DNA of 64,000 nucleotides from NCBI GenBank assembly GCA_018060845.1, contig JAGOVG010000001.1:86070-150069 (forward strand), written 5' to 3'. A program made the position numbers and the translations under genes. The stretch is from Candidatus Woesebacteria bacterium. Its GTDB lineage: Bacteria; Patescibacteriota; Microgenomatia; UBA1400; UBA12108. Positions 1-33,731 of the stretch are shown piece by piece (within the stretch, counting starts at the first letter, position 1; each line of letters starts with the position of its first letter). The notes beneath the pieces were generated by a model. That model saw only the letters and a program-made list of their open reading frames with translations. It did no database searches and had not been told where the DNA came from.

Positions 1-225
1 TAAAACTCTTATCACTGCTCCCTCGCACACTCGTTGCAGAAAAGTGGCTCATGGCGACGGTGCCAATTGTGATTTTTGGGGTTATGCGATACATGCAGCT
101 GATCTACGAAAAGAATGAGGGGGAGAGCCCACATAAAGTGCTCATGAGTGATAAAACCCTACTAGGGACAGTGGCTATATGGGGACTGATGGTCCTACTT
201 ATGATCTACGGAGTATAGAGCTCTA

Positions 226-1140
226 CTATTTGGTGATCGTTGTATATTTGGCTGAGACGTAACCCACGCTACCCTCGAACTCGATTTTGTGCCAGCCAGC
301 GCTCGTGGTTTCACCCAGATACTTTAGGTGTTCACCGATATCGGCTCGCCCCAAACTCTCGGCGCTACTACTAGGCTCTTTGCGGACGTTTAGGCCCCCA
401 GCAGATACAACATCCGCGGAGTCGCTCACGGTCACATAAGGTCTCACTGGCGAGGCTAGAGGAGCGGGTGAGGCGGAACTTGATGGCTTGGGAGTGGCGA
501 GAGCTGCCTTCGTACTGGCTGCAGGAGTAGCAATCGTTGGCTCTGTAGGAGCCGCAGAGACCTCCTGCGTTGGCGTAAGATTAACTGGTTCGCTCTTTAG
601 TTTGACGCTAACAACTAGGTTAAAGCCAGTTGTTGCAACGATCGGGATTTTTTGCTCGGCAAAACCGGGTGTGCCAACGATTATTTCATGGTTACCCGGA
701 CTTACCTCACGCTTACTCAGTGGGGTAAAGCCAGAGGGGACGCCGTCGATCGTTAGACTACTAGTATCAGGATCCGAAACGACCGAGATGGTCGAGAGCC
801 CAGTCTTGTCTGGGACTAAGTTGAGGCTGTAGCCAAAACTGTCGAGGACGGTCTCGCCAAAAGTGCGGGAAAGGACGGTCGAGGCAGAGCTCTCTAGCTC
901 GACTGTTGCCTCATAGGGAGTCAGGGTCGTGTCATCGGGGATCAGCCTGAGCGTATAGGTGCCGGGCGCGATATTTTGGTTTTTGAGGGGAGTTTTGCCT
1001 AGTTCTTTGTCAGATAGGTAGACTGTTGCGGGCGCGCTAGTTGAGATCTCGAGACCAGCTGGCTTTTTGACGAACAGGTTTTTGACTGTACACCCAGACA
1101 GGATCAAGCTAGATATAACGACCATAATTAACTTGAGCAT
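226..1140 (-). CDS. Lipoprotein with PEGA-like domains and C-terminal SH3b domain
   Basis: N-terminal signal peptide with lipobox LSGC. Repeated PEGA-like beta segments (VYLSDKELGKTPL..GTYTLRL). C-terminal SH3b-like segment (GLNVRKEPSSSAESLG...GWHKIEFEGSVGYVSAKY). Confidence 0.55.
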   Translation of the reverse strand: MLKLIMVVISSLILSGCTVKNLFVKKPAGLEISTSAPATVYLSDKELGKTPLKNQNIAPGTYTLRLIPDDTTLTPYEATVELESSASTVLSRTFGETVLDSFGYSLNLVPDKTGLSTISVVSDPDTSSLTIDGVPSGFTPLSKREVSPGNHEIIVGTPGFAEQKIPIVATTGFNLVVSVKLKSEPVNLTPTQEVSAAPTEPTIATPAASTKAALATPKPSSSASPAPLASPVRPYVTVSDSADVVSAGGLNVRKEPSSSAESLGRADIGEHLKYLGETTSAGWHKIEFEGSVGYVSAKYTTITK

Positions 1141-1182
1141 ATGACTCTATGTTACCACGGCTAGGTTAGTGAGCGCGGGTAC

Positions 1183-1211
1183 TTGACAAGCTAACTCCCC
1201 TATTTTATATT
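1183..1211 (+). promoter_or_regulatory. Sigma70-like promoter of the Hsp20 gene
   Basis: TTGACA at 1183-1188, 17-nt spacer, TATATT at 1206-1211, about 60 nt upstream of the ATG at 1273. Confidence 0.4.
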
Positions 1212-1215
1212 AATT

Positions 1216-1242
1216 TTGGCAGTCGTACCATGAGACTGCTAG
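1216..1242 (+). promoter_or_regulatory. CIRCE-like inverted repeat (putative HrcA operator variant) upstream of the Hsp20 gene
   Basis: TTGGCAGTC-N9-GACTGCTAG matches CIRCE TTAGCACTC-N9-GAGTGCTAA at 7/9 plus 7/9 positions, with a perfect GCAGTC/GACTGC dyad. It lies between the promoter and the RBS. Confidence 0.5.
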
Positions 1243-1272
1243 ATTATGACCAACATGGTGGAGGTATAACTT

Positions 1273-1671
1273 ATGACAATAATTCGTTGGGACCCCACAC
1301 GCGCCCTCTTACGCTGGCCAAATGTCTGGGATGATGACGATTTTATGCCAAACTCTGCAGACAACCTAGACGTCTATGAGACAAAAGACGAGGTAGTAGT
1401 TAAAGCGGCTGTAGCTGGGGTAAACCCAGAAAAAGTTGATGTAACCTTTGAAAAAGGGATACTCACGATCACAGGATCTGAGGAGAGTGAGGAAAAAGAA
1501 GATAAGAAGTATTACCGTAAGAGTAGCCGCTCTTACTCATACCGAGTGGCGGTCCCTGGCAATATCGATCTATCGGTCGAGCCAGAAGCAAAAGTAGAGC
1601 ACGGAGTAATTAGTATCAGCTTTAAAAAAGCAGAAGAGGCTAAGCCAAAGAAGATTGCGGTTAAGAAGTAA
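1273..1671 (+). CDS. Hsp20/alpha-crystallin family small heat shock protein
   Basis: 132 aa. Alpha-crystallin domain pattern (DVYETKDEVVVKAAVAGVNPEKVDVTFEKGILTITGSEE...YYRKS..SYSYRVAVP), GGAGG RBS upstream. Confidence 0.85.
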   Translation: MTIIRWDPTRALLRWPNVWDDDDFMPNSADNLDVYETKDEVVVKAAVAGVNPEKVDVTFEKGILTITGSEESEEKEDKKYYRKSSRSYSYRVAVPGNIDLSVEPEAKVEHGVISISFKKAEEAKPKKIAVKK

Positions 1672-1699
1672 AAAGTACTGAGTAACAATTGTAAGACAA

Positions 1700-1721
1700 A
1701 CCCCTGGGAAACCGGGGGTTT
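1700..1721 (+). terminator. Weak intrinsic terminator hairpin after the Hsp20 gene
   Basis: ACCCCTGG-GAAA-CCGGGGGT stem-loop followed by only a short TTT, so the call is weak. Confidence 0.3.
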
Positions 1722-1741
1722 GCTGTATAATGAAAAACGTT

Positions 1742-1814
1742 GGCCCAGTGGCGAAGTGGAAACGCGGCTGTCTGCAAAACAGCTACTGCACCAGTCCGAT
1801 TCTGGTCTGGGCCT
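1742..1814 (+). tRNA. tRNA-Cys (anticodon GCA)
   Basis: 7-bp acceptor stem GGCCCAG/CTGGGCC. Anticodon stem GCTGT/ACAGC with loop CTGCAAA (GCA). D-loop contains GG and the T-arm is ACCAG/CTGGT. A TATAAT lies about 10 nt upstream. The T-loop TCCGATT is slightly non-canonical. Confidence 0.7.
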
Positions 1815-1858
1815 CAGACAATATTGACTTCGGGTTTGTTTAGGATAATACTTAATTT

Positions 1859-2593
1859 GTGAAGAGAGATACTAGGGGTGGTTATAACAGAAAGAGTATA
1901 AACGAAAATTTCTTTAAGACATGGACGCCCTCCATGGCATATGTGCTTGGTTTTATGTATGCGGATGGGACAATAGTTGATTCTTATAAATCTAGTAGAG
2001 CGTACTATATTAGTTTTTCTAGTAATGACTTTCAGATTTTGAGTGATATCAAGGAAGTATTAAGGTCTAAACATATAATTTATACTGTTGCACCCAGAAT
2101 CTTGTCTCACAAAAATACTAGATATATTTCCAAGACAGGATATGTACTCAGATTAGGTAACAGAACCATGTATGAGGATTTGATTAAACTTGGACTAAGT
2201 CATAGAAAATCGCTAGTAATGTCACTCCCATCGATGCCAGATACATATTTTTCTTACTATTTGAGAGGATACTTTGATGGAGACGGATGTATAAGCATTA
2301 CAAAGGTAACATCGACAAGTAACAGGATTAGAGTTGTGTTTACCAGTGGTAGTACAGTTTTCCTATCACAGTTGGCTACGAGCATCTGTAGGCTGATCGA
2401 CGTTCCACTGCCTCACTATTATAAAAGTGTAGGTGCTTTTAACTTAGTACTCAGCGGAAATGCAGCTATAAAAGTCTTGGACTATTTATATAACAATATT
2501 GAACTGTCGCCTTCTTTGAAAAGAAAGAGGAAAATTTACTGTGACTTTTTAGAAAATAGTTCTAAATTTAATAAATTGCCAGTCATTACCTAG
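1859..2593 (+). CDS. LAGLIDADG-family homing endonuclease (free-standing, two-motif)
   Basis: Two LAGLIDADG motifs (YVLGFMYADGT and YLRGYFDGDGCI) at the spacing expected for a single-chain enzyme. The gene is markedly AT-rich relative to its neighbours. The GTG start is uncertain, and the ATG at 1935 is an alternative. Confidence 0.8.
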   Translation: MKRDTRGGYNRKSINENFFKTWTPSMAYVLGFMYADGTIVDSYKSSRAYYISFSSNDFQILSDIKEVLRSKHIIYTVAPRILSHKNTRYISKTGYVLRLGNRTMYEDLIKLGLSHRKSLVMSLPSMPDTYFSYYLRGYFDGDGCISITKVTSTSNRIRVVFTSGSTVFLSQLATSICRLIDVPLPHYYKSVGAFNLVLSGNAAIKVLDYLYNNIELSPSLKRKRKIYCDFLENSSKFNKLPVIT

Positions 2594-2594
2594 T

Positions 2595-3668
2595 TTAAGC
2601 ATTAGCAATATCTATCACTGTTTCGACCAGGCGATTGCTGTAACCCCATTCATTGTCATACCAGGCAAAAACTTTGACCAAATCCCCTCCGATTACCTGA
2701 GTTAAGTCGAGATCGACTATTGCCGACTCACTCCTACCGACTATGTCGGATGAGACGAGCGGCTCATCGGTAACTGCCAGGATGTTGTGAAATCTATCCT
2801 CGAGTGTAGCCTGGCGGAGAATGTTGTTTACCTCTTCTTTTGTAGTAGTCCTTTTGACGACAAACGTAAAGTCTGTGAGGGAGCCTGTGATAGTTGGCAC
2901 CCTGATGGAGACCCCATCAAAGAGACCTTTTAGCTCTGGAATAGTCTCGGTGGTTGCGATCGCAGCCCCAGTACTGGTGGGTACCATGTTCTGGGCAGCT
3001 GCTCTGGCACGGCGAAGATCCTTGTGAGAGGCATCCTGGAGGTTTTGGTCGTCGGTGTAGCTATGGATAGTGGTCATGGCCGCTTTGGCTATCCCGAGTC
3101 TATCCTGAAGAACCCAGGCTACCGGGGCCACACAGTTGGTGGTGCAGCTGGCATTATTGAGAACGCTGATAGTATTTTTACGATCAGCTTCGACTATCTC
3201 TGCCTCGTTGACGCCGATTACACTGGTCGGGACACCGCCTCCTTTGGCTGGAGCGGAGAGGACTACCTGCTTGGCACCGCCTGCCAGGTGCAGGCTCGCC
3301 TTTTCTTGAGAGGTAAATGCCCCTGTACTCTCGATTACCACTTCGACATTGTATTTACCCCAAGGGATCTTGGCAGGATCACGCTGCGCAAACACAGGGA
3401 TTTTGTGAGTACCACCGAGTATAAGGTGGCCAATGAGCGGATCCTCGTCACTCGCTTCTTTTGATGATTGATATTTTTCGTATGCGATCTCGCCATCAAA
3501 ACGACCGTAGGTAGTGTCATATTTGAGGAGGTGGGCCCAGCCTTCGATATCCATAGATCCAGAGGTATTGATTGCGGCTAGCTGGATGTCGCTCCGGTGT
3601 TTTTGCCACCAAACCCTGGCAGCTAAGCGACCTATACGGCCAAAGCCATTGATTGAGAATGATTTCAT
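2595..3668 (-). CDS. gap: Glyceraldehyde-3-phosphate dehydrogenase
   Basis: NGFGRIGR NAD-binding motif and active-site SCTTNCVAPV, full length at 357 aa. Confidence 0.92.
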   Translation of the reverse strand: MKSFSINGFGRIGRLAARVWWQKHRSDIQLAAINTSGSMDIEGWAHLLKYDTTYGRFDGEIAYEKYQSSKEASDEDPLIGHLILGGTHKIPVFAQRDPAKIPWGKYNVEVVIESTGAFTSQEKASLHLAGGAKQVVLSAPAKGGGVPTSVIGVNEAEIVEADRKNTISVLNNASCTTNCVAPVAWVLQDRLGIAKAAMTTIHSYTDDQNLQDASHKDLRRARAAAQNMVPTSTGAAIATTETIPELKGLFDGVSIRVPTITGSLTDFTFVVKRTTTKEEVNNILRQATLEDRFHNILAVTDEPLVSSDIVGRSESAIVDLDLTQVIGGDLVKVFAWYDNEWGYSNRLVETVIDIANA

Positions 3669-3854
3669 TCATTCAGTATAGCTGTAAAGTCGAAAATCCG
3701 TAAATCGGTATATTTTGATATACTTTGATATATATTCCTAATCACCTCTGGTATTTACTACCCTCACATCTGGTGTATTATCCTATAATTAGTTGACAAA
3801 TGGGGACTTTTTGGTACGATGTGTCACTTAAGCGAGGTTAATTAGCCTCGGTAT

Positions 3855-4421
3855 ATGAAAAAACATTGGTCAAGCAAAAATTTGTTAGACTGGCATCGAT
3901 TCCGACGTTTGGTTGGAATGCAGTTTGCTAGTCTCGCCTTAGCTGTATCTGTAGTCTCATACCCTACCCATGCCTTTGACTACCACTTTAGTTCTGGCGT
4001 AGAAATCATGGGTGAGTCAGAAGAGGTGGTTACTACTAGTACCTATAGCACCTTTGAGTTCCCCCTAGAGTCGACGCTCGGCATGTCACAGAGCTACCAC
4101 GGCCTACACCCAGGTGTTGACCTACGGGCCAACCGCGGCACTGGCGTCCTAGCCATGGCTGAGGGGACAGTAACGCAAGTAGAGAAGATCTGGGGCGGCT
4201 ACGGCCACTACATCCGTATTGCCCACAAAGGAACGCTATCGAGCCTTTATGCCCATTTAGACGAGGTGTATGTGGTGCCAGGCCAAAAAGTGGCTGGTGG
4301 AGAGAAGGTAGGTACTGTTGGGATGACTGGCTGGACTACTGGGCCTCACTTGCATCTTGAGGTGACACAGGGTGAGCGCGCGGTTAACCCGCTAAGTTAT
4401 TTTTCGATAAACGAAAAATAA
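3855..4421 (+). CDS. M23 family metallopeptidase (secreted)
   Basis: Signal/TM segment, then HPGVDL...GYGHYIRIAH...GPHLHLEV, the LytM/M23 zinc-binding motifs. Confidence 0.8.
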   Translation: MKKHWSSKNLLDWHRFRRLVGMQFASLALAVSVVSYPTHAFDYHFSSGVEIMGESEEVVTTSTYSTFEFPLESTLGMSQSYHGLHPGVDLRANRGTGVLAMAEGTVTQVEKIWGGYGHYIRIAHKGTLSSLYAHLDEVYVVPGQKVAGGEKVGTVGMTGWTTGPHLHLEVTQGERAVNPLSYFSINEK

Positions 4422-4460
4422 GTCGAAAGTAGCAAGTACCAAGTTATCAAGTTGAGAACA

Positions 4461-5177
4461 TTACTTTACTATCGTGCCGATTTTGGCGCCCTCGACTGCC
4501 ATCTTGGCGTTACCCTTTTGGAAGAAGTCAAAGACCATGATCGGGAGTTTGTTGTCCATACAGAGGGCAAAAGCTGATGTATCCATAACCTCGATCCTGT
4601 TTTTGAGGGCATCCATAAAGCTTAGCTCCTCATATTTGACTGCATCTGGATATTTGACAGGGTCTCGGTCGTAAATACCATCGACCTTGGTGGCCTTCAT
4701 GATGACGTCACAACCTAGTTCTAGACCGCGTAGAGCGGCTCCTGTGTCAGTAGTAAAGTAAGGTGCGCCTGTGCCGGCCGCGAGGATTAATACCCTCCCC
4801 TTGTCCATATGGCGGATCGCACGACGTCTGATGTAGGGCTCGGCAACAGCGGGCATCTCCAGACCTGATTGTACTCTGGTGTCTACCCCTATCTTCTCGA
4901 GAGCGTCCTGGATGGCCAGACTGTTCATGACAGTGGCCAACATACCCATGTAGTCGGCAGTGGATCTCTCGATGCCGTTGGCGGCCCCAGCGATGCCGCG
5001 GAAGATGTTGCCTGCGCCTATTACGACAATTACCTGGCTACCGGTCTCATGGACGCTCTTAATCTCTTCGGCTACGGCTGTTGCTGCCTTGGGATCGATC
5101 CCGTACTCCCGATCGCCAAGTAGGCTCTCGCCGCCGAGTTTGAGAAGGACGCGTTTAAAATGAGGTTGTTTGGTCAT
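4461..5177 (-). CDS. pyrH: UMP kinase
   Basis: [22 protein letters not shown] and the conserved amino-acid kinase fold. Start chosen at MTKQ (5177), which has a GGAGA RBS. The longer ORF extends to 5204. Confidence 0.88.
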
Positions 5178-5229
5178 AAAATATTCTCCAATTATTGATA
5201 CCAATGATTAGGATAACACAGTTGCTCTA

Positions 5230-5565
5230 CTATTTAATTATGAATCTATCTATAGAGATCATTGAGTAAGGATCGGCGGAATGCCAGCTCGAAAATACAG
5301 ACGCAGTATCTATGCCAGAATCACCAGTCACCACATACTTGCCTTGACTGTAATCAAAGGTAATAGTTATGCCATCCACTGACAGTGGAAGTTCAGAGTT
5401 TAGTTTTTCCATTGCACTGAGTTCTGTGTAATACTCTGGCGGAGCTATATCTAGTCTATTGCCTCCTGTTTGCTTGGGTTCTGCATTACGAATCGCCTGG
5501 TAAGATGCTATGAATGTAGTAACTAGAACTGTGACTATGACAGTAATCACTAATAATTTTTTCAT
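5230..5565 (-). CDS. Small membrane-anchored hypothetical protein
   Basis: N-terminal TM helix (LLVITVIVTVLVTTFIA). Start taken at MKKLL to avoid overlap with the upstream giant gene. Confidence 0.4.
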   Translation of the reverse strand: MKKLLVITVIVTVLVTTFIASYQAIRNAEPKQTGGNRLDIAPPEYYTELSAMEKLNSELPLSVDGITITFDYSQGKYVVTGDSGIDTASVFSSWHSADPYSMISIDRFIIK

Positions 5566-8072
5566 ATAGCCTCCGCTGGTGGGATTACTGCGTTGACCAC
5601 CCATTTAGTTCGACCACCATCACAAGTATTAGAGCAGTCTACGTCAAAACGCTCTACTGGCATTTCGTAGTTTTCGCCATAATAGGGGTCATTAAGTATT
5701 ATGCATGAGCCATCAGGACATGTCCCCACAGCTAAGGTTTGATGACCAAAACCTTTATCCCCATTTGGCTGATCGATATTGGAGTTTATCCAGACAGGTA
5801 TCCCATACTTACTGTATTCGTTGATCTGGGATACTATATTAACCACTGAGCCAGCAACAGGTACTACGTCAAAACCTTGATTTTCAAGTATTGGCTTGTG
5901 CTGTTCAAACCAGCTAGTACCTCCGGCTGATACACCACCATTTTCTTCGAGCAGGGCATTATAATCCTCAGGAGTGATGCTCGGATCTACCAATGACATG
6001 ACCATCGCTCCAGACATGATGCCACAGCCAACATCACCCCAATTTGAGCCATCAGGATTGGTAACTCCAGAGTAGTTCTTTTGATTAAAGTATGAAATAT
6101 TTCCATGTGTTGAAGTAACATTACTTTCCACAATATTATTAGCATCTGCACTTAAATTAAAGCCGCCGGTGTTGCCGGCGGTTTTTGTTGCGTTTACATT
6201 ATTTATTTGGCTAGGCCCCGTGTCATTTATCTGCGCAGGAGACTGTGTGTCCGTACCAAATGACTGCGGTTCATCTGGGGTAAATAGGTCATTTACACCA
6301 CCTATAATTGCGCCTAACACCGCACATGGATAAATAAACGGCCCACACGTAGTAGCTCCACCCATGATGCCAGAAGTAAAGCTCTTGGGTAATGTTGGGC
6401 GATCAATGTCCAAGTAAGTTGGTGCATCTTTTGCCTCTTTGCCTATCACAAAATCTGCACCTGCAATTGATATGTTAAAACCAGTATATAGATTATCCCA
6501 GTCCTCTGCTTCACTTTTTACCTTGAAAGGACTAAAGTTGATTATTGGTAAAAATCTATTCTCTTGTGATCCGATGGTCAGAACATCCCTCCCAGCTAAT
6601 GAGAAAGAGAAGCCTGAGTATATTTTGTCATTTAATGTATTGTAGGTTTTTGCTCTATTCATCGCACTTTTTCTGTCTTCTGTTCCTGATCCTTTCTGAT
6701 CTGAGGCAGTTAATCCACCACTCGCCTGGCCAAACTCGAAGGAAGTGGGGCTAAGTATCTCTTGGTTACGCTCAAATACATTTAGCTGTTCTGCGACGTA
6801 TGTCTCTTTATCTATCCATTTACCATCGTTACAGACACCGATCTCTTCTCTGGCATTACCAGAGGGAACTGTCTCGCCATTTGCTATACATGTAGCTAGT
6901 ACTTTGGGAGTTTCTCTAGGGCTAACTTCGCTAGATGGCTTGCCTACTGTATATTCGGCACCTGCGCCTGTTGGCAATATAACCTGAGCGGGATTTTCCA
7001 TATATACTTCGTGACAAGGCCTAGAATTGATGTGACCACACTTGGCATCTAACTGAACACATTGTCGTTGATTTCCATCACCTCCCATATTAAATCCAGT
7101 AGCTACATAGGTCCCAGATGAAACAGTTACGTTACCTGCTTTGCACTTATTAGTCTGCTCAGTCTGGCGTGCTGGGATATAGGAATTGGGATTGGTTGGA
7201 TTGGATGGATTAGTAGCACTAGTATTTGATGGTGTAGTCACAGTAGCACCTCTGCCAGTATTAAGAACTACTTTGCCACCACGTGTTAATGAGGTCTCAT
7301 CAACATACTCTCCATTCTCAGATTTGGTTCTCTTGAGCGTCGCTGTAGTGTCATCGACTGTTGTGCCTTTATCGTCTTTTACTACAATTTGTCTGGTTTG
7401 ATTGATGTTGCCTGTTTTTACTTCTTCTTTTGTGGATACTGTGGTAGTAGTCTCACCACCTAGCGCGTTGCGAGCTGTGGTGATGTTTTTGCTTACTTTG
7501 TTTCCCTCTTTGTCTTCACCATCGTATCCTGCTCCAGCAAATGCGTCTTTGAAAGGATTGTCATCTACGGGTTTAACTACGCAATCATCTGTCATACATC
7601 TACCAGGCTTTTCTGCTGTTGCATTTTCTGCCTTAGGAGCTACGCCAAGAGATTGCTTTTCCTCTGGCTTTTTAATAAATCCTGTAATTATTTCGACAAA
7701 ACCAGGTTTTTCTGTCGCTTTGGTTCCACCGTTTAGACTTGCCCCTTCGAATGGGTTAGATTTTTGAGTTGTAGTAGTTCCTCTCTCAGGAACGGTATTG
7801 GTAGCTGGTTTGACCGTGTCTTTTAAAGTAGTTTTTGTTGTTGTTAGACTAGAAGAGTCAACTTGCGTTCCAGCTTTTGAGCCAACTATACCTGCGCCGT
7901 TTAAAGTTCGGATTTGATTAACGGAAGGTGTAGCAGGAGTTACATAAAAATATATTAAATTGATCGCAACGACTAGTAATGCTAAACCTATTAGGATATT
8001 TTTTTTAGAAGAAATGTTGTTGCTTCGTAATACTTTTATGTTGTTTACTTTTTGTTTGGCTTTTTGCTTCAT
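5562..8072 (-). CDS. Giant membrane-anchored Thr-rich/Cys-rich surface protein with C-terminal papain/C39-like cysteine peptidase domain
   Basis: 836 aa. N-terminal signal-anchor helix and a Thr/Ser-rich low-complexity region with FxGAxLNGG motifs. A Cys-rich middle. C-terminus has GCGIMSGAMVMSL (catalytic Cys context) and GFGHQTLAVG...LNDPYYG (His/Asp), like Peptidase_C39-like domains. Confidence 0.6.
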   Translation of the reverse strand: MKQKAKQKVNNIKVLRSNNISSKKNILIGLALLVVAINLIYFYVTPATPSVNQIRTLNGAGIVGSKAGTQVDSSSLTTTKTTLKDTVKPATNTVPERGTTTTQKSNPFEGASLNGGTKATEKPGFVEIITGFIKKPEEKQSLGVAPKAENATAEKPGRCMTDDCVVKPVDDNPFKDAFAGAGYDGEDKEGNKVSKNITTARNALGGETTTTVSTKEEVKTGNINQTRQIVVKDDKGTTVDDTTATLKRTKSENGEYVDETSLTRGGKVVLNTGRGATVTTPSNTSATNPSNPTNPNSYIPARQTEQTNKCKAGNVTVSSGTYVATGFNMGGDGNQRQCVQLDAKCGHINSRPCHEVYMENPAQVILPTGAGAEYTVGKPSSEVSPRETPKVLATCIANGETVPSGNAREEIGVCNDGKWIDKETYVAEQLNVFERNQEILSPTSFEFGQASGGLTASDQKGSGTEDRKSAMNRAKTYNTLNDKIYSGFSFSLAGRDVLTIGSQENRFLPIINFSPFKVKSEAEDWDNLYTGFNISIAGADFVIGKEAKDAPTYLDIDRPTLPKSFTSGIMGGATTCGPFIYPCAVLGAIIGGVNDLFTPDEPQSFGTDTQSPAQINDTGPSQINNVNATKTAGNTGGFNLSADANNIVESNVTSTHGNISYFNQKNYSGVTNPDGSNWGDVGCGIMSGAMVMSLVDPSITPEDYNALLEENGGVSAGGTSWFEQHKPILENQGFDVVPVAGSVVNIVSQINEYSKYGIPVWINSNIDQPNGDKGFGHQTLAVGTCPDGSCIILNDPYYGENYEMPVERFDVDCSNTCDGGRTKWVVNAVIPPAEAI

Positions 8073-8476: not shown

Positions 8477-10801
8477 TTAACGAGTCGTAGATACACAGAC
8501 TCCGTCTTTTATAACACCCTGCTGATTACGATTATTAGCATCGCGGCAAGAGTCACCCTCTCTAACTAAGGTGTCAGTGTTTAGCTGAGTACCCTCAGAA
8601 TCTTCTGAGCCTTTGGTGCCGCCATCTAGGTTACCGTCAAGATTTGGATCTACATTTAGACCCTGACTGTCGTTAGGCTGAGTTACATTTTCTATTAATC
8701 GCTTGACGGTGCTTCTCGCGAGACAGCCAATTCCTTCTAGTTTTAAGAAATTTACGTCACATTGTGCATTCTTATCTTGCAACTCAGGGTTTATTGACCC
8801 GTCTTCGTCAGGACAGATGTAGTAGCCTTTGTTGTTAACGGTAGCTCCGCGTAGTTTACAGTCAGTGTCTTTTTCGACAACTTGGTTAGTCTTACCGTCA
8901 GGCTTTTGAACGATTCTGACTGCGTCAGGACTTAAGGAACCTCCAGTTTCAACTTCCAATCTAGGGGTCTCAGACTGCTTGTCGGGACTAAATGTAGGAT
9001 TTTTGGGAACGCAAATTCCTTTATTATAGACAACATTATTATTGGAGCATTTTTCGCCTGCTTCGCATGTCCAACTTATTCGACATTCTTCAGGCGCATT
9101 GAACTGACCGGAGTTCTTGTCGGCGCCCAGATTACCTGTAGCATCCCCTGTCTGAGGAGCCGCAGGAGCATTGAACTGACCTGAGTTCTTGTCATTGCCG
9201 AGGGTGCCTGTAGCATCATTAGTTGAGGCATCTTCTGGGCAGGATGTGGTCTTACTAAGGTATCCTCCCGTACACACTTGAACTGTAGTATTTGCATCTT
9301 TATTGACATGGTCACCTGGTCGGTAACACTTCTTAGCGTTACTATCCCACCAACCGGCGTTATCACCGGAAGCACATTCCTGTGAGCTCTTTGGTTCGTT
9401 AGCGTTTGTGGCTGACTGGGTAGGACAGTTGGTAGAGAGGAATGGATACTTAACATTAGGCCTGCCGCCTACAGTCCAGTCACAGACATAATTGCCTGGT
9501 GTGACTTCATCACCTATTGGATAACACTTGCCATTTAAAGGGAAAGCGTAGAGTCCACAGTTGGAGCCAGTAGTTGGAGCACAGACACTTCCTTTAGCCC
9601 TAGTTTTGACTAATTTTGTGTCTTTAGGACAGATAATTTCTGTTTGCTTGTCAGGACTGAGGGATCCGGCAGTGTCAGCACCAGTTTTTAGAGCTACAGG
9701 GACCTTGTTGGAAGCTGGTGGCGCGTAGAAAGTGTCAGACTGCTTGTCAGGGCTATATAGAGTCGTTTGCACCCCACTAGTGTTTGTTAGGTTGGTTATA
9801 TATTTCCCATTTTCGTTGAGAGTTTTGGTTATAGTAGCGGTATTCTCGTCAATCTTTTTGCCTGCTGTGTCATACTTCTCAACTTTGGAGATCAAAATCT
9901 CATTACCTGTTGGAGAGACGATAGTTCTGGTAGTGGTGACAGTCTTGCCTCCATCAGCCAGAGTTTGTGTCTCTGTTTTTGAGGTTAAAGCATTACCCTG
10001 CCCATCACTGCCGGAGTAACCACCTCCTACATTTGAATCAAACATTGCGTTCATTGCATCAATTTTGATCTTTTGCTCTTCTTGCATGTCATCCCGATTA
10101 GTTCTCGGACTGGTTGGGACGAAACTCTTTGAGATCTCTGCGCCACCATCGTCAACTTTTTCGCCTGGGCGAACAGGTGTAACACCTGATGTGCTCTTGG
10201 TGATCTCTTGAGATGGCATAGATACTCTGCCATTTTGGTCTAGATCTTTCCCTGTTACTTCTTCTGCATACTTGATTGCCTCGGTGACAATTTTGGTGTT
10301 CTGAGTTGTACCACCACCTAGGTTGGCGCCCTCAAAAGCATTTCCATAGTCAGCTTTTGGAGAAGTCTTGGTGGTAGTAACACCCGAAGCACTACGAGTA
10401 AGCTCGGCTCCACCATTGTCTGTTTTTTCTCCTGTTCTTGTAGTTGTTACATTTTGACCTGCGGTTTGCGTGCTACCAGCACCATCTTCTGTCTTGCCAC
10501 CGTTTAATTTGGCTCCTGCAAACACATCATTACCATCTTTTGGTTTGGTAGTAACTGTGCCAGTTTTTTGAGTCGTTTCGGTTGTTTTGTTTAAGGTAGT
10601 TTTTGGCGTTGTAGTTGTACTACGAGTAACCGAGCCCATACCAACTAGATTGATTGATGCTTGTTCTACAGATTGAGTAAAGAGGTAAATACCAATAAAC
10701 ACAAATGCTGTTATAGAGAGAACAAGGAATTTGTTTTTCTTAACATATTTGATAAATATGTTCTCTTTATTCTTGGTTGTTTTGTGTGTTATTTTTTTCA
10801 T
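8477..10801 (-). CDS. Giant membrane-anchored Thr-rich/Cys-rich surface protein (paralog of 5562..8072)
   Basis: 774 aa. Same N-terminal architecture and FxGAxLxGG motifs as 5562..8072. Many Cys, repeated SPDKQ(S/T) motifs and a 24-aa tandem repeat. Confidence 0.6.
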   Translation of the reverse strand: MKKITHKTTKNKENIFIKYVKKNKFLVLSITAFVFIGIYLFTQSVEQASINLVGMGSVTRSTTTTPKTTLNKTTETTQKTGTVTTKPKDGNDVFAGAKLNGGKTEDGAGSTQTAGQNVTTTRTGEKTDNGGAELTRSASGVTTTKTSPKADYGNAFEGANLGGGTTQNTKIVTEAIKYAEEVTGKDLDQNGRVSMPSQEITKSTSGVTPVRPGEKVDDGGAEISKSFVPTSPRTNRDDMQEEQKIKIDAMNAMFDSNVGGGYSGSDGQGNALTSKTETQTLADGGKTVTTTRTIVSPTGNEILISKVEKYDTAGKKIDENTATITKTLNENGKYITNLTNTSGVQTTLYSPDKQSDTFYAPPASNKVPVALKTGADTAGSLSPDKQTEIICPKDTKLVKTRAKGSVCAPTTGSNCGLYAFPLNGKCYPIGDEVTPGNYVCDWTVGGRPNVKYPFLSTNCPTQSATNANEPKSSQECASGDNAGWWDSNAKKCYRPGDHVNKDANTTVQVCTGGYLSKTTSCPEDASTNDATGTLGNDKNSGQFNAPAAPQTGDATGNLGADKNSGQFNAPEECRISWTCEAGEKCSNNNVVYNKGICVPKNPTFSPDKQSETPRLEVETGGSLSPDAVRIVQKPDGKTNQVVEKDTDCKLRGATVNNKGYYICPDEDGSINPELQDKNAQCDVNFLKLEGIGCLARSTVKRLIENVTQPNDSQGLNVDPNLDGNLDGGTKGSEDSEGTQLNTDTLVREGDSCRDANNRNQQGVIKDGVCVSTTR
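9096..9239. repeat. Tandem 72-bp direct repeat (2 copies) inside the surface-protein gene
   Basis: GCATTGAACTGACC(G/T)GAGTTCTTGTC... recurs at 9096 and 9168. It encodes the 24-aa repeat ..GxLGxDKNSGQFNAP. Confidence 0.7.
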
Positions 10802-10828
10802 GAGTTTTGACCCCTTTTGTGTCGATAA

Positions 10829-11209
10829 TTACTGAGTAGAAAGTACTTCTAATTTTGTTAAGATTAGACTTTGTGAGGAGGTAGCTGACTCGGCACTGAG
10901 CATACCTGTGACACTGACTTGTTTGCCTTCGAAACTATCTAGATTATCGGACGTGGATAAGAGAATGGCGTTTCCGCTGAGATTGAGGAGATAGTAGCTG
11001 CCTTTGACTCCAGCAGGCGTATCTTTGATAAGTACTCCCTCAAGACTGACGGTAGACTGGGAGCCGATTAGGTTAATGTCCACAGGCTTGGTCATCGAAG
11101 AAATTAGTGTGCCGACCAGTACGACTGATAGAACAGCTATAACTACAATTTTAGTTTTACTGGTTTTATTCTTACTAGTGTTACTTGAGTATTTATTGGT
11201 TTTTTTCAT
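10829..11209 (-). CDS. Small membrane-anchored protein (paralog of 8075..8461)
   Basis: 126 aa, N-terminal Lys/Ser-rich stretch plus TM helix. Sequence pattern similar to 8075..8461. Confidence 0.45.
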   Translation of the reverse strand: MKKTNKYSSNTSKNKTSKTKIVVIAVLSVVLVGTLISSMTKPVDINLIGSQSTVSLEGVLIKDTPAGVKGSYYLLNLSGNAILLSTSDNLDSFEGKQVSVTGMLSAESATSSQSLILTKLEVLSTQ

Positions 11210-11335
11210 ATTATCTCCCGCAGAACATAGATAATATCTCTATCTATTGTTTGCAATATACTATGTATCACTTAATATTATTTTGGGTGTAGTGTCAAGT
11301 AGATTGTTTTTATTTTTTCGGTCTCATTAATAAAT

Positions 11336-11358
11336 AACCCCCTTGTGCAAGGGGGTTA
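11336..11358 (-). terminator. Intrinsic terminator downstream of groEL (palindromic, possibly bidirectional)
   Basis: Perfect 9-bp stem AACCCCCTT-GTGC-AAGGGGGTT followed by T-rich ATTTTCTTG. Confidence 0.6.
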
Positions 11359-11389
11359 TTTTCTTGTCTTGAGTAAAGAAGTATTAGTT

Positions 11390-13078
<1,689 letters not shown>

Positions 13079-31623: not shown

Positions 31624-32817
31624 TTATCTATGCATGAATGATCTAGTTTTTGTAAATGATCTTTTTAGTGTGATTGTTAATAATATGACGACATATATCG
31701 AGAATAGCGTAGGGAGGTTTTGGATTTCAGTCATGTAGGCGAAGGCCATGGTCAGAAAGATATATGGTATCTGACTAAATAGTGCGAGAGTGGAGAGAGT
31801 GGTTGCGCGGTGTTTGGAGTCTGTATGCTCGTTGATAATGGTAGAGGTTAAGGGCTTAACGACATTCTCAATACTATTAATGATTAGGTAGTATGCTGCG
31901 CCAATTAGAGGGTTATTTGTTGTGGCGGCAACTAGAAAAGCAAGCGTGAAAGCAAGTAGACTAAATGTTGTTAATTTCTGATCTCCGAATCGTATGCGAA
32001 GTTGTGCAAATTTAAATGATACATAGATGGCGGGAATTGAGATCGCAGCAAATAGGTATCCGAATGTCTCACCGGAGTAGCCAAAATAAGCGGCGGTCGA
32101 CTGGCGAACAATACCTTGGTAGAGCTTAATGAAGGTGGCAAAGGTAAAGAGAGACAACAAGTATGGTCTAAGATTGTTATTAAAAAGTGTGATAGTCCCC
32201 TCTTTAAGATGCGCTAGGTAGTTACGAAAATTAAACCTGACAGTGTCTACTTTAGGTTCTTTCATAAAAATGAGAATAAGAATTGAGAAGATTAGAAAGA
32301 TTGTCCACGCATAAAATGGATAGGTGGGACTCTGGCCATAGAGATAGCCACCAATAACGGTTGAGAAAAGAGTGGCAGAAATGGTGATCGAAGATGATTT
32401 ACCAATAACTTCGGAATATTTGTCTGCTTTCTTTTTTTCTTTGAGGGAATCGTAGGCTAGAGCTTCGGTTGCGCCAGAGTGAAAAGCAAAACCAATAAAC
32501 ATAATTGAGTTACCAATGAGGAAGTGTTCGAATTGAGTAGAGTTAACAAGTATTAGACAGGAGATTAGTTGAAAGAGGCTTCCCATAATCAAAGTGTTGC
32601 GTTTACCTAAAAGGTCTGCGAGTACGCCTGAGGGAACTTCCATGATAATACCTATCAAGACTGCGATTCCTTCGACTAGTCCTACTTGGCTCTGTGAAAT
32701 ATACTGGCGGAAGTAGAATACCCAATTGGGGAGAATAAACCAGCCGTTAATGAACAAAGTTAACCAATAAAAGAGCCGAATATTGCTGATGCCGAAATAA
32801 GGGAAGTGTCTTTTCAT
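31624..32817 (-). CDS. MFS transporter (paralog)
   Basis: VPSGVLADLLGKRNTLIMG, 12 TM. Start set at MKRHF (GGGGGA RBS), 13 nt after the upstream stop. Confidence 0.75.
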   Translation of the reverse strand: MKRHFPYFGISNIRLFYWLTLFINGWFILPNWVFYFRQYISQSQVGLVEGIAVLIGIIMEVPSGVLADLLGKRNTLIMGSLFQLISCLILVNSTQFEHFLIGNSIMFIGFAFHSGATEALAYDSLKEKKKADKYSEVIGKSSSITISATLFSTVIGGYLYGQSPTYPFYAWTIFLIFSILILIFMKEPKVDTVRFNFRNYLAHLKEGTITLFNNNLRPYLLSLFTFATFIKLYQGIVRQSTAAYFGYSGETFGYLFAAISIPAIYVSFKFAQLRIRFGDQKLTTFSLLAFTLAFLVAATTNNPLIGAAYYLIINSIENVVKPLTSTIINEHTDSKHRATTLSTLALFSQIPYIFLTMAFAYMTEIQNLPTLFSIYVVILLTITLKRSFTKTRSFMHR

Positions 32818-32830
32818 AAATCCCCCGTCA

Positions 32831-33703
32831 CTATGATTTTTGGAAGATTTTTGATGGTAAGTTACCAATGATAATTGCTATAACGATTAACAATCCACCA
32901 TATAAATCTGTGGTGCTAGGAATTTCGGCAAAAAGTAGGTAGCCAAATAGAGTTGCAAACACGACTTCAGAAGAGATAGCTATAGTGCCTAGGTTTAAGT
33001 CAAAGTGTTGAAAACCATAGAGTAGTAGGTAGTTAACACTAAAGAGTAGAGCCCCAAAAATAATACCTACTACCCAGCTAGATGTAGTTATTGTGGGAAT
33101 TTGAAATGTTGCTGATTGGATCATAAAAATAGTTGCGACTATTATTCCCCCGATTTGTGGAATTAATGTCAAAACTACGCGATTTATTTTGCCTGACAGG
33201 TGTTTTCGGAAAGAATTGGAGACCACATCAAACAAACCGCCAACTATTCCTAATAGTATTCCAACATTAAATGAGTCAAATCCTTTTGCAAAGAAAGAAA
33301 ATCCGACCACTACCAACGCAAGGCTAAGAGCTTTTTGTAATGTAATTGTTTCTTTAAACACCAACATCCCAATTAAAAGAGAAGAGAAAATAGAACCTAG
33401 ATAAAACGAGAATATTGATAACATTATTGTGGTATTGAGAACAGATAGTGTGTAGCAAATGACGCCTATTGGAAAGGAGATACCAAATAGTAGTAGATAT
33501 TTAGGCGATACTCCCTCAAAATTGAGCTTTATTTTGGTAGTTATAATGATTAACAGGGCTACACCAAGAGCCATAACATTTCGAAAAGCAATTTGTTGGT
33601 AAGATGATAGATCGACAGACAAAAGTCTAACCCACACACCAAACGAGCCAAAAATAAGGCCTGCAAAAATTAGTGAGAGTAATCCAAGAGTTGATCGTTT
33701 CAT
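32831..33703 (-). CDS. EamA/DMT family transporter
   Basis: 10 TM, EamA repeats. Confidence 0.7.
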   Translation of the reverse strand: MKRSTLGLLSLIFAGLIFGSFGVWVRLLSVDLSSYQQIAFRNVMALGVALLIIITTKIKLNFEGVSPKYLLLFGISFPIGVICYTLSVLNTTIMLSIFSFYLGSIFSSLLIGMLVFKETITLQKALSLALVVVGFSFFAKGFDSFNVGILLGIVGGLFDVVSNSFRKHLSGKINRVVLTLIPQIGGIIVATIFMIQSATFQIPTITTSSWVVGIIFGALLFSVNYLLLYGFQHFDLNLGTIAISSEVVFATLFGYLLFAEIPSTTDLYGGLLIVIAIIIGNLPSKIFQKS

Positions 33704-33731
33704 TGGTATATGATAACAGAAATACTATAGT

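What the first reader, a model, noticed from the sequence alone, without database searches (positions are those of the whole stretch)
1742..2593. AT-rich free-standing LAGLIDADG homing endonuclease inserted between tRNA-Cys and gap
A two-motif LAGLIDADG enzyme (GFMYADG / GYFDGDG) sits 45 nt downstream of an apparently intact tRNA-Cys. It is not within an intron or intein, and its GC content is far below the flanking genes. Its stop is 1 nt from the stop of gap on the opposite strand. This looks like a horizontally acquired selfish element that has landed next to a tRNA, or is the remnant of an intron-encoded enzyme.
Basis: partly seen in the sequence, partly recalled or inferred. Interest (0 to 1): 0.5.

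Follow-up and report, generated by a model that had tools for sequence, protein, structure and literature searches.

The report
Homing endonuclease gene beside swapped tRNA-Cys
A selfish DNA-cutting enzyme gene sits right after the cysteine tRNA gene of an ultrasmall (Patescibacteria) bacterium, apparently arrived together with a replacement copy of that tRNA, and belongs to a large, seemingly undescribed family whose members almost always sit beside a particular tRNA gene.

Summary
tRNA-Cys(GCA) lies at 1742-1815. After a 43-nt spacer comes an intact 244-aa two-motif LAGLIDADG ORF (1859-2593). Its stop is 1 nt from the stop of gap on the other strand. This is the lowest-GC stretch of the window.

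It is free-standing: no intron, intein, rRNA or transposon features were found.

Six close relatives, with GAPDH 75-97% identical, have tRNA-Cys next to gap and no endonuclease. Their spacers there are 1-98 nt. Homology with the nearest relative breaks exactly at 1737/1738 and 2594/2596. So the tRNA was replaced as well: it is 63% identical to a tRNA that is 100% identical between two endonuclease-free relatives.

Other lineages carry full-length copies at the same site, and one carries a truncated copy.

In this enzyme's family, 70 of 79 loci have a tRNA within 250 nt. Three enzyme clades each have their own partner: tRNA-Cys upstream, tRNA-Cys downstream, or tRNA-Met/tRNA-Asp. Only 1 of 80 more distant viral relatives has a nearby tRNA.

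Best reading: an intron-less homing element that targets the tRNA-Cys gene or its edge and converts the tRNA along with itself, much as phage T4 SegB does. Cleavage and the target site are inferred, not shown.

I rate it a new variant of a known kind, interest about 0.6.

The parts
1738..2594 (+). Segment with no counterpart in the nearest relatives. It holds the replaced tRNA-Cys, the HE promoter-like leader and the HE gene.
   Evidence: blastn of window 1-5300 against L002, L053 and L003 aligns 1..1737 and 2594/2596..5259 and nothing between. The alignment shows the same break.
1742..1815 (+). tRNA-Cys(GCA). It is intact but not the allele of this lineage.
   Evidence: ARAGORN and Rfam at 54.9 bits. 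It is 63% identical to the tRNA-Cys of L002 and L053, which are 100% identical to each other. The tRNA tree disagrees with the GAPDH tree. Cloverleaf -26.2 kcal/mol.
1824..1852 (+). Promoter-like leader of the HE gene: TTGACT, 17 nt, AATACT. The start codon follows 6 nt after the second hexamer, so the mRNA is probably leaderless.
   Evidence: It is the only sigma-70-like match in 1600-2750. The same TTGAC(T/A)-about 17 nt-(T)AATAAT/AATACT layout, with ATG or GTG 5-7 nt downstream, is conserved in 12 related elements. It is also visible as I/L/V-D-F in over-called N-termini of homologues.
1859..2593 (+). Free-standing LAGLIDADG homing endonuclease gene, 244 aa, a two-domain monomer.
   Evidence: Pfam and PHROG 4645 'endonuclease' at 2.8e-41. 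AF2 model pLDDT 91.6 with two alpha-beta-beta-alpha-beta-beta-alpha domains. Foldseek hits only monomeric LAGLIDADG enzymes. There are 2565 homologues at E<=1e-3.
1940..1969 (+). LAGLIDADG motif 1 (YVLGFMYADG, aa 28-37). Catalytic Asp36 is at 1964-1966.
   Evidence: D36 and G37 are invariant in 38 homologues. Helix 24-36 of the model ends at D36.
2258..2287 (+). LAGLIDADG motif 2 (YLRGYFDGDG, aa 134-143). Catalytic Asp142 is at 2282-2284.
   Evidence: R136-G143 are invariant or nearly so. Helix 128-142 of the model ends at D142.
1865..1924 (+). Conserved basic N-terminal extension (RD-RGG-[HY]-NRK..N..FFK.W, aa 3-22) specific to this family. It supports GTG 1859 as the true start.
   Evidence: R6, G7, G8, N10, R11, F18, F19, K20 and W22 are at least 90% conserved. 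The NCBI annotation starts at ATG 1934 (P0001, 219 aa) and would cut this region off.
2595..3668 (-). gap (GAPDH). It is the right-hand homologous flank, not part of the element.
   Evidence: Pfam Gp_dh_N and Gp_dh_C. In HE-less relatives its stop codon lies 1-98 nt from the tRNA-Cys 3' end.
1697..1737 (+). Left-hand homologous flank: the hsp20 terminator hairpin and the TATAAT (1726-1731) of the resident tRNA promoter. It is conserved with L002 and L053 up to 4 nt before the tRNA.
   Evidence: Alignment. Hairpin -22.5 kcal/mol, z -5.5. The blastn break is at 1737.

Best explanation
This is a free-standing ('intron-less') LAGLIDADG homing endonuclease element in the chromosome of a Microgenomates-type Patescibacterium. 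The element is a promoter-like leader plus a probably leaderless 244-aa ORF and nothing else.

Proposed mechanism:
1. The enzyme cuts endonuclease-free alleles of this locus, in or at the edge of the tRNA-Cys gene.
2. The break is repaired from an endonuclease-bearing allele, using the conserved flanks as homology. These are the tRNA promoter/hsp20 terminator on one side and the gap 3' end on the other.
3. Repair copies in the endonuclease gene and, by co-conversion, the donor's tRNA-Cys.
4. The resulting allele escapes cutting. Either the insertion separates the two halves of the site, or the imported tRNA differs in sequence.

Shown here:
- The gene is intact and has the LAGLIDADG fold and both catalytic Asp residues.
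- It is absent from the same site in the nearest relatives.
- The segment lacking homology comprises exactly the tRNA plus the HE gene.
- The tRNA allele is foreign to this lineage.
- Full-length, truncated and empty states of the same site exist in related lineages.
- The whole enzyme family is tRNA-associated, clade by clade.

Inferred, not shown:
- The enzyme is active.
- Its target lies in or overlaps the tRNA-Cys gene.
- The transfer was break-induced gene conversion.
For: **Identity and integrity of the enzyme**
- Pfam LAGLIDADG_3 and LAGLIDADG_1.
- D36 and D142 are invariant.
- The AF2 model has pLDDT 91.6. Foldseek hits are I-Tsp061I, bI3 maturase, I-AniI, I-HjeMI and the I-OnuI group.

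**Free-standing**
- Only the tRNA appears in Rfam at E<=1, and only tRNAs in 20 homologous loci.
- There are no terminal inverted repeats or target-site duplication.

**Presence/absence**
- L002, L053, L003, L005, L004 and L058 (GAPDH 97, 90, 88, 82, 77 and 75% identical) keep tRNA-Cys next to gap without the HE gene.
- Their spacers there are 1-98 nt.
- The window's two flanks joined (..GGCCTCAGA|TTTAAGCATT..) reproduce the empty site of L053.

**Co-conversion**
- Homology breaks at 1737/1738 and 2594/2596.
- The tRNA-Cys is 63% identical to that of L002 and L053, which are identical to each other.
- The window is sister to L002 in the GAPDH tree.
- The tRNA tree is incongruent with the GAPDH tree.
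- HE-bearing genomes each have a unique tRNA-Cys allele, at most 82% identical to any other. HE-less genomes share two conserved classes, 88-100% and 92% identical within class.

**Life-cycle states at the same site**
- Full-length copies: L006, L082, L088, L243, L244 and L245.
- Truncated copy with the first domain only: L100.

**Family habit**
- 70 of 79 loci have a tRNA within 250 nt, and three HE clades match three tRNA partners.
- tRNA-Cys is adjacent in 15 of 15 clade-A loci where the upstream sequence is visible. This includes loci where gap is not the neighbour (L006, L084, L087).
- Control: 1 of 80 viral-contig relatives has a tRNA within 300 nt.

**Precedent**
- T4 SegB is a free-standing HE in a tRNA cluster. 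It recognises a T-psi-C-arm motif inside tRNA genes and co-converts the tRNA region (PMC2330249).
Against: - No cleavage data exist, and the target site could not be located by comparison.
- No position in the tRNA consistently separates HE-bearing from HE-less alleles.
- The distance from the tRNA end to the HE leader varies from 8 to about 60 nt.
- Most clade-A loci are the same syntenic locus (PEGA-tRNA-Cys-HE-gap), so their tRNA adjacency is not independent evidence.
- No close donor was found. The best HE match is 59% identical over 118 aa (L100). The best tRNA-Cys match is 81% (L112).
- Low GC is a family trait, so it does not date the event.
- Whether this is the genome's only tRNA-Cys was not checked beyond the 64-kb window.
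Confidence: 0.62

Rival explanations
1. Same kind of element, but the recognition site is the short junction between the tRNA-Cys 3' end and the gap 3' end, or the gap 3' end alone. The insertion splits this site. On this view the tRNA adjacency in clade A mostly reflects inherited synteny, and the tRNA replacement is a by-product of resection.
For: In HE-less relatives the tRNA 3' end and the gap stop codon are only 1-4 nt apart in L058, L004 and L053. The window's joined flanks equal the L053 empty site. gap is the downstream neighbour in the window, L082, L083, L088, L100 and L243, and over-called C-termini of P0008 and P0010 read the gap 3' end in antisense.
Against: tRNA-Cys stays adjacent where gap does not (L006, L084/L085, L087, L245). 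A sister clade sits next to tRNA-Cys in a different context, tRNA-Cys-tRNA-Leu clusters. In L082, L088, L244 and L245 the tRNA is inverted relative to the HE. Spacer length in empty sites ranges from 1 to 98 nt.
Confidence: 0.2
2. An inactive or merely hitch-hiking gene. The tRNA-Cys/HE block entered by ordinary homologous recombination or from a phage, with no endonuclease-driven homing. The family's tRNA adjacency would reflect tRNA flanks being tolerated insertion spots.
For: Relatives occur in phages: PHROG 4645 and 550 viral stretches. No activity data exist. tRNA flanks are common integration hot spots (general knowledge).
Against: The catalytic residues and full length are conserved across a very large family. 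The partners are clade-specific tRNA species rather than any tRNA. Viral relatives are not tRNA-adjacent, 1 of 80. No integrase, attachment repeats or other cargo are present.
Confidence: 0.1
3. A domesticated LAGLIDADG protein with a host function tied to the neighbouring tRNA. It could be a maturase-like RNA chaperone or a DNA-binding regulator of tRNA-Cys expression.
For: The best structural matches include the maturases bI3 and I-AniI. The conserved basic N-terminal motif has no known role. In clades B and C the gene abuts the tRNA 5' end.
Against: The gene is absent from the six closest relatives, which have the same tRNA-gap arrangement. A truncated copy exists in L100. Both catalytic Asp are invariant, unlike in pure maturases (the contrast with maturases is general knowledge). 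The low GC is typical of selfish genes.
Confidence: 0.04
4. A remnant of an intron- or intein-encoded endonuclease whose host element has decayed.
For: Most characterised LAGLIDADG enzymes are intron- or intein-encoded. Patescibacteria carry many rRNA and tRNA introns (PMC11270868, PMC13011429).
Against: No group I or II intron signal appears here or in 20 homologous loci. The tRNA is uninterrupted. The ORF has its own promoter-like leader, start and stop. Only LAGLIDADG domains are found, with no Hint/intein domains.
Confidence: 0.02

Closest known systems
Phage T4 SegB (free-standing GIY-YIG homing endonuclease in the T4 tRNA gene cluster; PMC2330249)
   Same: Both are free-standing genes between or next to tRNA genes and are absent from the homologous region of close relatives. 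SegB's recognition site includes a conserved tRNA-gene motif and it drives inheritance of the adjacent tRNA genes by co-conversion ('intron-less homing'). Here the tRNA next to the HE has likewise been replaced.
   Different: The nuclease fold differs (LAGLIDADG, not GIY-YIG). This one is in a bacterial chromosome rather than a phage. Each clade has a single specific tRNA partner (Cys, or Met/Asp). Cleavage is not demonstrated here.
Other T4 free-standing endonucleases SegA-G and MobA-E (intron-less homing, marker exclusion)
   Same: Intergenic position, own expression signals, presence/absence polymorphism, co-conversion of flanking markers.
   Different: Different enzyme families, a phage co-infection setting, and targets in protein-coding genes.
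LAGLIDADG endonucleases in rRNA insertions and group I introns of CPR/Patescibacteria (Tsurumaki et al. 2024, PMC11270868)
   Same: Same host phylum, same enzyme superfamily, and targeting of highly conserved RNA genes.
   Different: Those lie inside 16S or 23S rRNA genes and interrupt them. This one lies outside the RNA gene, leaves it intact, and has no intron.
[quoted passage not shown] 2026, PMC13011429)
   Same: Mobile elements associated with tRNA genes in the same phylum. tRNA-Asp is a partner there, as it is for clade C here.
   Different: Those insert in the anticodon loop and need splicing. The HE genes reported there are HNH in Patescibacteria, and LAGLIDADG (PF03161) only in cyanobacterial tRNA-Arg introns. 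No free-standing tRNA-flanking LAGLIDADG genes are mentioned.
Solved monomeric LAGLIDADG enzymes I-Tsp061I (2dch), I-AniI (1p8k), I-HjeMI (3uvf) and the I-OnuI group
   Same: Predicted two-domain fold, with both motif helices ending in the catalytic Asp.
   Different: Only 10-18% sequence identity and TM 0.5-0.6. The profile E-value to any PDB chain is no better than 1.5e-4. This family has an extra conserved basic N-terminal segment. All of the solved enzymes are intron-encoded.

Membership tests
LAGLIDADG homing endonuclease, two-motif monomer | Two LAGLIDADG motifs in one chain | tested here: met
   LGFMYADG (aa 30-37) and RGYFDGDG (aa 136-143). Pfam PF14528 and PF00961 score above their cut-offs.
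LAGLIDADG homing endonuclease, two-motif monomer | Acidic catalytic residue at the end of each motif helix | tested here: met
   D36 and D142 are invariant in 38 homologues. They sit at the C-terminal ends of helices 24-36 and 128-142.
LAGLIDADG homing endonuclease, two-motif monomer | Pseudo-symmetric alpha-beta-beta-alpha-beta-beta-alpha x2 fold | tested here: met
   AF2 pLDDT 91.6, pTM 0.88. The top Foldseek PDB hits listed are LAGLIDADG homing endonucleases, a LAGLIDADG maturase, or an endonuclease-bearing intein, with E down to 1.7e-9.
LAGLIDADG homing endonuclease, two-motif monomer | Site-specific cleavage of a long (about 20 bp) DNA site | not testable with these tools
   Needs protein expression and cleavage assays.
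Free-standing homing endonuclease with intron-less homing (T4 Seg/Mob type behaviour) | Gene lies in an intergenic region, not in an intron or intein | tested here: met
   Rfam finds only the tRNA. The gene has its own start, stop and leader. No Hint domains.
Free-standing homing endonuclease with intron-less homing (T4 Seg/Mob type behaviour) | Absent from the otherwise homologous locus of close relatives | tested here: met
   L002, L053, L003, L005, L004 and L058 lack it.
Free-standing homing endonuclease with intron-less homing (T4 Seg/Mob type behaviour) | Co-conversion of flanking sequence with the endonuclease gene | tested here: met
   The adjacent tRNA-Cys is replaced within the same homology gap, 1738-2594. 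That the replacement was break-induced is inference.
Free-standing homing endonuclease with intron-less homing (T4 Seg/Mob type behaviour) | Cleavage site present in the endonuclease-less allele near the insertion point | not testable with these tools
   Comparison of HE-bearing and HE-less alleles gave no discriminating positions.
Group I intron-encoded endonuclease | ORF enclosed by ribozyme structure within an RNA or protein gene | tested here: not met
   No intron family at E<=1 in 1-6000. None at gathering score in 20 related loci. The tRNA is continuous.
Intein-associated endonuclease | In-frame insertion in a host protein with Hint splicing blocks | tested here: not met
   Only LAGLIDADG domains are found. 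The ORF is bounded by the promoter-like leader and its own stop, between a tRNA and a convergent gene.
CPR rRNA-insertion LAGLIDADG genes | Located inside a 16S or 23S rRNA gene | tested here: not met
   No rRNA match in the region or in 20 related loci.
Transposon/IS or integrase-borne island at a tRNA | Transposase or integrase, terminal inverted repeats, target duplication or a repeat of the tRNA 3' end | tested here: not met
   The insert holds a single ORF. There are no flanking repeats beyond short chance matches.

The most novel reading that the evidence does not exclude
A large family of chromosomal free-standing LAGLIDADG endonucleases in Patescibacteria-like genomes uses single tRNA genes as homing targets. 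It numbers about 2,500 detectable relatives and was not found in the searched literature. Clades appear specialised on tRNA-Cys or tRNA-Met/tRNA-Asp.

By co-conversion these elements would repeatedly overwrite an essential tRNA gene with foreign alleles. That would explain the patchy, host-incongruent and unusually divergent tRNA-Cys alleles seen here, and would make these elements a driver of tRNA gene turnover in reduced genomes.
Probability: 0.5. Interest if true: 0.7.

Novelty: new variant of a known kind. Interest (0 to 1): 0.6.

Why it matters
If the inference holds, it extends intron-less homing at tRNA genes from one phage enzyme (T4 SegB, GIY-YIG) to a large LAGLIDADG family living in bacterial chromosomes.

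It would show that a selfish element can replace an essential tRNA gene, probably single-copy, without interrupting it.

It offers a concrete mechanism for horizontal turnover of tRNA alleles in Patescibacteria.

It also supplies a set of compact (220-260 aa), sequence-diverse monomeric meganucleases whose natural targets can be guessed from their tRNA neighbours. That is useful for enzyme discovery.

The claim is directly testable with one recombinant protein and two synthetic substrates.

Tried and rejected
1. **Group I intron or other RNA structure around the ORF.** Rfam at E<=1 on 1-6000, and at gathering score on 20 related loci, found only tRNAs. Rejected.
2. **Transposon or island signatures.** No meaningful terminal or direct repeats. 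Rejected.
3. **Paralogues in the window.** tblastn finds none.
4. **Remnants of an HE leader in the 98-nt (L002) and 53-nt (L003) spacers of HE-less relatives.** Local alignment scores are no better than shuffles, z<=2. No footprint.
5. **Positions in tRNA-Cys that separate HE-bearing from HE-less alleles, to locate the target.** No consistent pattern. The target stays unknown.
6. **Search for a donor.** The best HE relative is 53-59% identical and the best tRNA-Cys is 81%. No donor is in the collections.
7. **Low GC as evidence of recent arrival.** Weakened, because HE GC is lower than flanks in 53 of 54 loci.
8. **MFE folding of the tRNA alone.** It did not return the cloverleaf, but the cloverleaf lies within 1.7 kcal/mol of the MFE.
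9. **NCBIfam.** No specific family, only a weak match to an archaeal RNA polymerase A'' model (NF011491, E 0.0017, 16.5 bits against a cut-off of 783), read here as reflecting a LAGLIDADG/intein insert in that model, which was not checked.
10. **Literature.** Five searches and four papers gave no description of tRNA-flanking free-standing LAGLIDADG genes in bacteria. The library is incomplete, so this is absence of evidence only.
11. **Failed scripts.** Two failed for technical reasons: a time-out and a wrong file path.
Full report
**1. What is there**

The window comes from a Patescibacteria (Microgenomates-type) MAG. The same sequence is in GCA_020049755.1, contig JAHZTO010000034.1, and in a separate Logan assembly of run SRR11088367. 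Whether the two assemblies come from independent data was not established.

The local gene order is:
- a PEGA/SH3 protein (226-1140, - strand);
- hsp20 (1273-1671, + strand);
- tRNA-Cys(GCA) (1742-1815, + strand);
- a 244-aa ORF (1859-2593, + strand);
- gap (2595-3668, - strand);
- an M23 peptidase and pyrH.

The tRNA is called by ARAGORN and by Rfam at 54.9 bits. It has four fully paired stems, a U73 discriminator and an A13:A22 mismatch. Its cloverleaf lies within 1.7 kcal/mol of the MFE.

The ORF hits Pfam LAGLIDADG_3 and LAGLIDADG_1 above their cut-offs and PHROG 4645 'endonuclease' at 2.8e-41. Their terminal Asp residues, D36 and D142, are invariant in an alignment of 38 homologues.

An AlphaFold model has pLDDT 91.6 and shows two alpha-beta-beta-alpha-beta-beta-alpha domains, with each motif helix ending at its Asp. 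Its top PDB matches are monomeric LAGLIDADG enzymes and maturases plus one endonuclease-bearing intein. They include I-Tsp061I, bI3 maturase, I-AniI, I-HjeMI and the I-OnuI group, at 10-18% identity. The sequence-profile match to any solved chain is weak, at best 1.5e-4.

The ORF has 35.0% GC against 44.8% for the window and 50.7% for gap. It is the lowest-GC 735-nt stretch of the window. The stop codons of the HE gene and gap are separated by one base.

**2. It is free-standing**

- Rfam at E<=1 over 1-6000 finds nothing but the tRNA.
- Twenty homologous loci give only tRNAs at gathering score.
- There are no Hint/intein domains.
- There are no terminal repeats or target duplication.
- There is no second ORF in the insert.

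**3. Presence, absence and the real extent of the insert**

A scan of one genome per species with the GAPDH protein returned the orthologous locus from relatives. Six of them keep tRNA-Cys next to gap but have no endonuclease gene:

| Locus | GAPDH identity to window |
|---|---|
| L002 | 97% |
| L053 | 90% |
| L003 | 88% |
| L005 | 82% |
| L004 | 77% |
| L058 | 75% |

In these, the distance from the tRNA 3' end to the gap stop is 1-98 nt. It is 1 nt in L058, 2 nt in L004 and 4 nt in L053.

blastn of the window against L002, L053 and L003 aligns 1..1737 and 2594/2596..5259 at 73-83% identity, with nothing between. The left break is 4 nt before the tRNA, just after the conserved TATAAT of the tRNA promoter. 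The right break is at the gap stop codon. So the segment with no counterpart is 1738-2594, which includes the tRNA.

The window's flanks joined together (..GGCCTCAGA|TTTAAGCATT..) reproduce the empty site of L053.

**4. The tRNA was swapped**

The tRNA-Cys genes of L002 and L053 are 100% identical. Those of L004 and L003 are 93% and 88% identical to them. The window's tRNA is only 63% identical, with changes in the acceptor, D, anticodon and T arms.

In the GAPDH tree the window is sister to L002, inside the group that carries this conserved 'class B' tRNA. The change therefore happened in the window's own lineage. Its boundaries coincide with those of the HE insertion.

More widely, the tRNA-Cys tree conflicts with the host tree. 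HE-less genomes carry one of two conserved classes. In contrast, each genome with a full or truncated HE (window, L100, L243, L006, L082, L088) has a distinct allele, at most 82% identical to any other. The sample is small, but the pattern is what co-conversion from diverse donors would produce.

**5. Other states of the same site**

- Full-length homologues, 42-52% identical, occupy the same place next to tRNA-Cys in L006, L082, L088, L243, L244 and L245. They sit within the same PEGA...gap synteny.
- L100 (GAPDH 78% identical) retains only the first domain, a 122-aa product ending 35 nt before gap.

Empty, occupied and decayed sites are the classical life-cycle states of a homing endonuclease gene. 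That interpretation rests on general knowledge of such elements.

**6. The element's own signals**

Between the tRNA and the start codon lies TTGACT-17 nt-AATACT (1824-1852). It is the only sigma-70-like match in 1600-2750.

Alone it is not significant. However, the same layout recurs in 12 related elements with 40-59% protein identity: TTGAC(T/A), about 17 nt, (T)AATAAT or AATACT, then ATG or GTG 5-7 nt later. It is even readable in over-called N-termini of database proteins.

There is no Shine-Dalgarno sequence, so a leaderless mRNA is likely; this is inference.

Residues 3-22 (RD.RGG[HY]NRK..N..FFK.W) are conserved across the family. This supports GTG 1859 as the start. The NCBI gene model begins at ATG 1934 (219 aa) and probably truncates the protein.

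**7. The family habit**

A metagenome scan with the family alignment returned 80 loci. ARAGORN shows that 70 of 79 loci with a long match have a tRNA within 250 nt. The neighbour-joining tree of the enzymes splits into three clades that coincide with the tRNA partner:

| Clade | Identity to the window's enzyme | tRNA partner and position |
|---|---|---|
| A (the window's clade) | 40-59% | tRNA-Cys 44-99 nt upstream, on either strand |
| B | 32-42% | tRNA-Cys 7-201 nt downstream (mostly under 120), usually followed by tRNA-Leu(TAA) |
| C | 30-38% | between tRNA-Met(CAT) and tRNA-Asp(GTC) |

In clade A, tRNA-Cys is adjacent in 15 of 15 loci where upstream sequence exists. This includes loci where gap is not the neighbour (L006, L084, L087, L245).

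As a control, 80 more distant relatives on viral contigs (25-38% identical) have a tRNA within 300 nt in only one case.

The enzymes are AT-rich relative to their flanks in 53 of 54 loci. Low GC is therefore a lineage trait and not a clock.

**8. Mechanism proposed**

The simplest account is intron-less homing:
1. The enzyme cuts HE-less alleles in or at the edge of the tRNA-Cys gene. The replaced recipient segment is essentially the 75-nt tRNA plus a few bases.
2. Repair from an HE-bearing allele uses the conserved tRNA-promoter region and the gap 3' end as homology.
3. Repair copies in the HE cassette and the donor tRNA.

Phage T4 SegB is the closest described precedent. It is a free-standing GIY-YIG enzyme in the tRNA cluster whose 27-bp site contains the T-psi-C-arm motif of tRNA genes, and it drives inheritance of the neighbouring tRNA genes (PMC2330249).

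A variant is that the site spans the tRNA/gap junction and is split by the insertion. This fits the 1-4-nt empty sites. It fits less well with the loci without gap, the inverted tRNAs and clade B.

Activity, target and break-induced conversion are all inferences. Comparison of HE-bearing and HE-less tRNA alleles did not reveal the site.

**9. Comparison with the literature**

Known LAGLIDADG genes of Patescibacteria lie inside rRNA insertions (PMC11270868; PMC7143001). The recent survey of tRNA introns in this phylum reports HNH genes in tRNA-Asn introns and LAGLIDADG genes only in cyanobacterial tRNA-Arg introns. It does not mention free-standing genes beside tRNAs (PMC13011429).

Searches for free-standing LAGLIDADG genes in bacteria returned only organelle papers. 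I found no description of this family's tRNA association. The library is incomplete, so the novelty claim is provisional.

**10. Verdict**

This is not a chance landing next to a tRNA. It is a member of a tRNA-associated family, and it brought a replacement tRNA-Cys with it.

- Kind: free-standing homing endonuclease, a new variant (LAGLIDADG, bacterial chromosome, tRNA-Cys partner).
- Confidence that it is an acquired free-standing HE gene: about 0.9.
- Confidence that the tRNA was co-replaced: about 0.8.
- Confidence that the target lies in or at the tRNA-Cys gene: about 0.6.
- Interest: 0.6.

Noticed in passing
window 1859-1936: The NCBI gene model (P0001, 219 aa) starts at ATG 1934. It omits a family-conserved basic N-terminal segment (RD.RGG[HY]NRK..N..FFK.W). 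GTG 1859 fits the homologues and the promoter-like leader, so the deposited annotation is probably truncated.
   Followed up: partly
window 1789-1795; L002 3573-3647 and many tRNA-Cys in L086-L139: The T-loops of these tRNA-Cys genes depart from the near-universal U54-U55-C56. The window and L017 have UCCGAUU (C55). L002, L053, L003, L004 and many metagenomic copies have UGCAAAU or UGCGAxx (G55). I did not determine what this means for tRNA-Cys structure or for endonuclease recognition.
   Followed up: no
L103 4001-5590: Two paralogous endonuclease genes sandwich a tRNA pair: HE (4001-4711), tRNA-Cys (4764-4837), tRNA-Leu(TAA) (4853-4936), then a second HE (about 4940-5590, 34% identical to the window's).
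   Followed up: partly
L109-L161 (clade C), e.g. L124 40-883: A sister clade of the enzyme sits between tRNA-Met(CAT) and tRNA-Asp(GTC), often only 1-25 nt from the tRNA-Asp 5' end. tRNA-Asp is also a reported target of group I introns in Patescibacteria (PMC13011429). A possible link was not examined.
   Followed up: no
L100 3875-4401: A truncated endonuclease gene (first LAGLIDADG domain only, 122-aa product) sits at the same site in a relative with 78% GAPDH identity. It is a decaying copy.
   Followed up: yes
L082 658-730, L088 292-364, L244 2822-2896, L245 2831-2904: In several lineages the tRNA-Cys next to the endonuclease is on the opposite strand, within the same PEGA...gap synteny. 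This implies local inversion or re-insertion of the tRNA gene.
   Followed up: no
L002 3475-3572: The closest HE-less relative has a 98-nt spacer of unknown origin between tRNA-Cys and gap. It contains an inverted repeat (ATTCAGC...GCTGAAT). Other relatives have 1-17 nt there. It shows no similarity to the HE leader.
   Followed up: partly
L002, L003, L004, L007, L008 and others (record titles): Many contigs that share this Patescibacteria-type locus are titled 'uncultured Pseudomonadales' or 'Gammaproteobacteria bacterium', and one HE homologue is titled 'Spirochaetia bacterium'. L002 has GAPDH 97% identical to the window. These taxonomic labels look wrong.
   Followed up: no
L047 4222-6077 and 8697-10555: Two copies of pyrH-gap lie 4.5 kb apart, with the same identity to the query. 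This is either a tandem duplication or an assembly repeat.
   Followed up: no
window 10481-11476, 32481-33986, 58691-60066: These are the window's other low-GC islands (0.35-0.38). The first covers the 5' part of a 774-aa ORF and a 126-aa ORF, neither with a Pfam match. The second covers MFS and EamA transporter genes. The third covers part of a 948-aa protein with a weak CHAP match.
   Followed up: partly
window 1697-1731: The hsp20 terminator hairpin (-22.5 kcal/mol, z -5.5) overlaps the -35 region of the tRNA-Cys promoter (TATAAT at 1726-1731). This 40-nt block is almost identical in L002 and L053. It is where the left recombination junction lies.
   Followed up: partly
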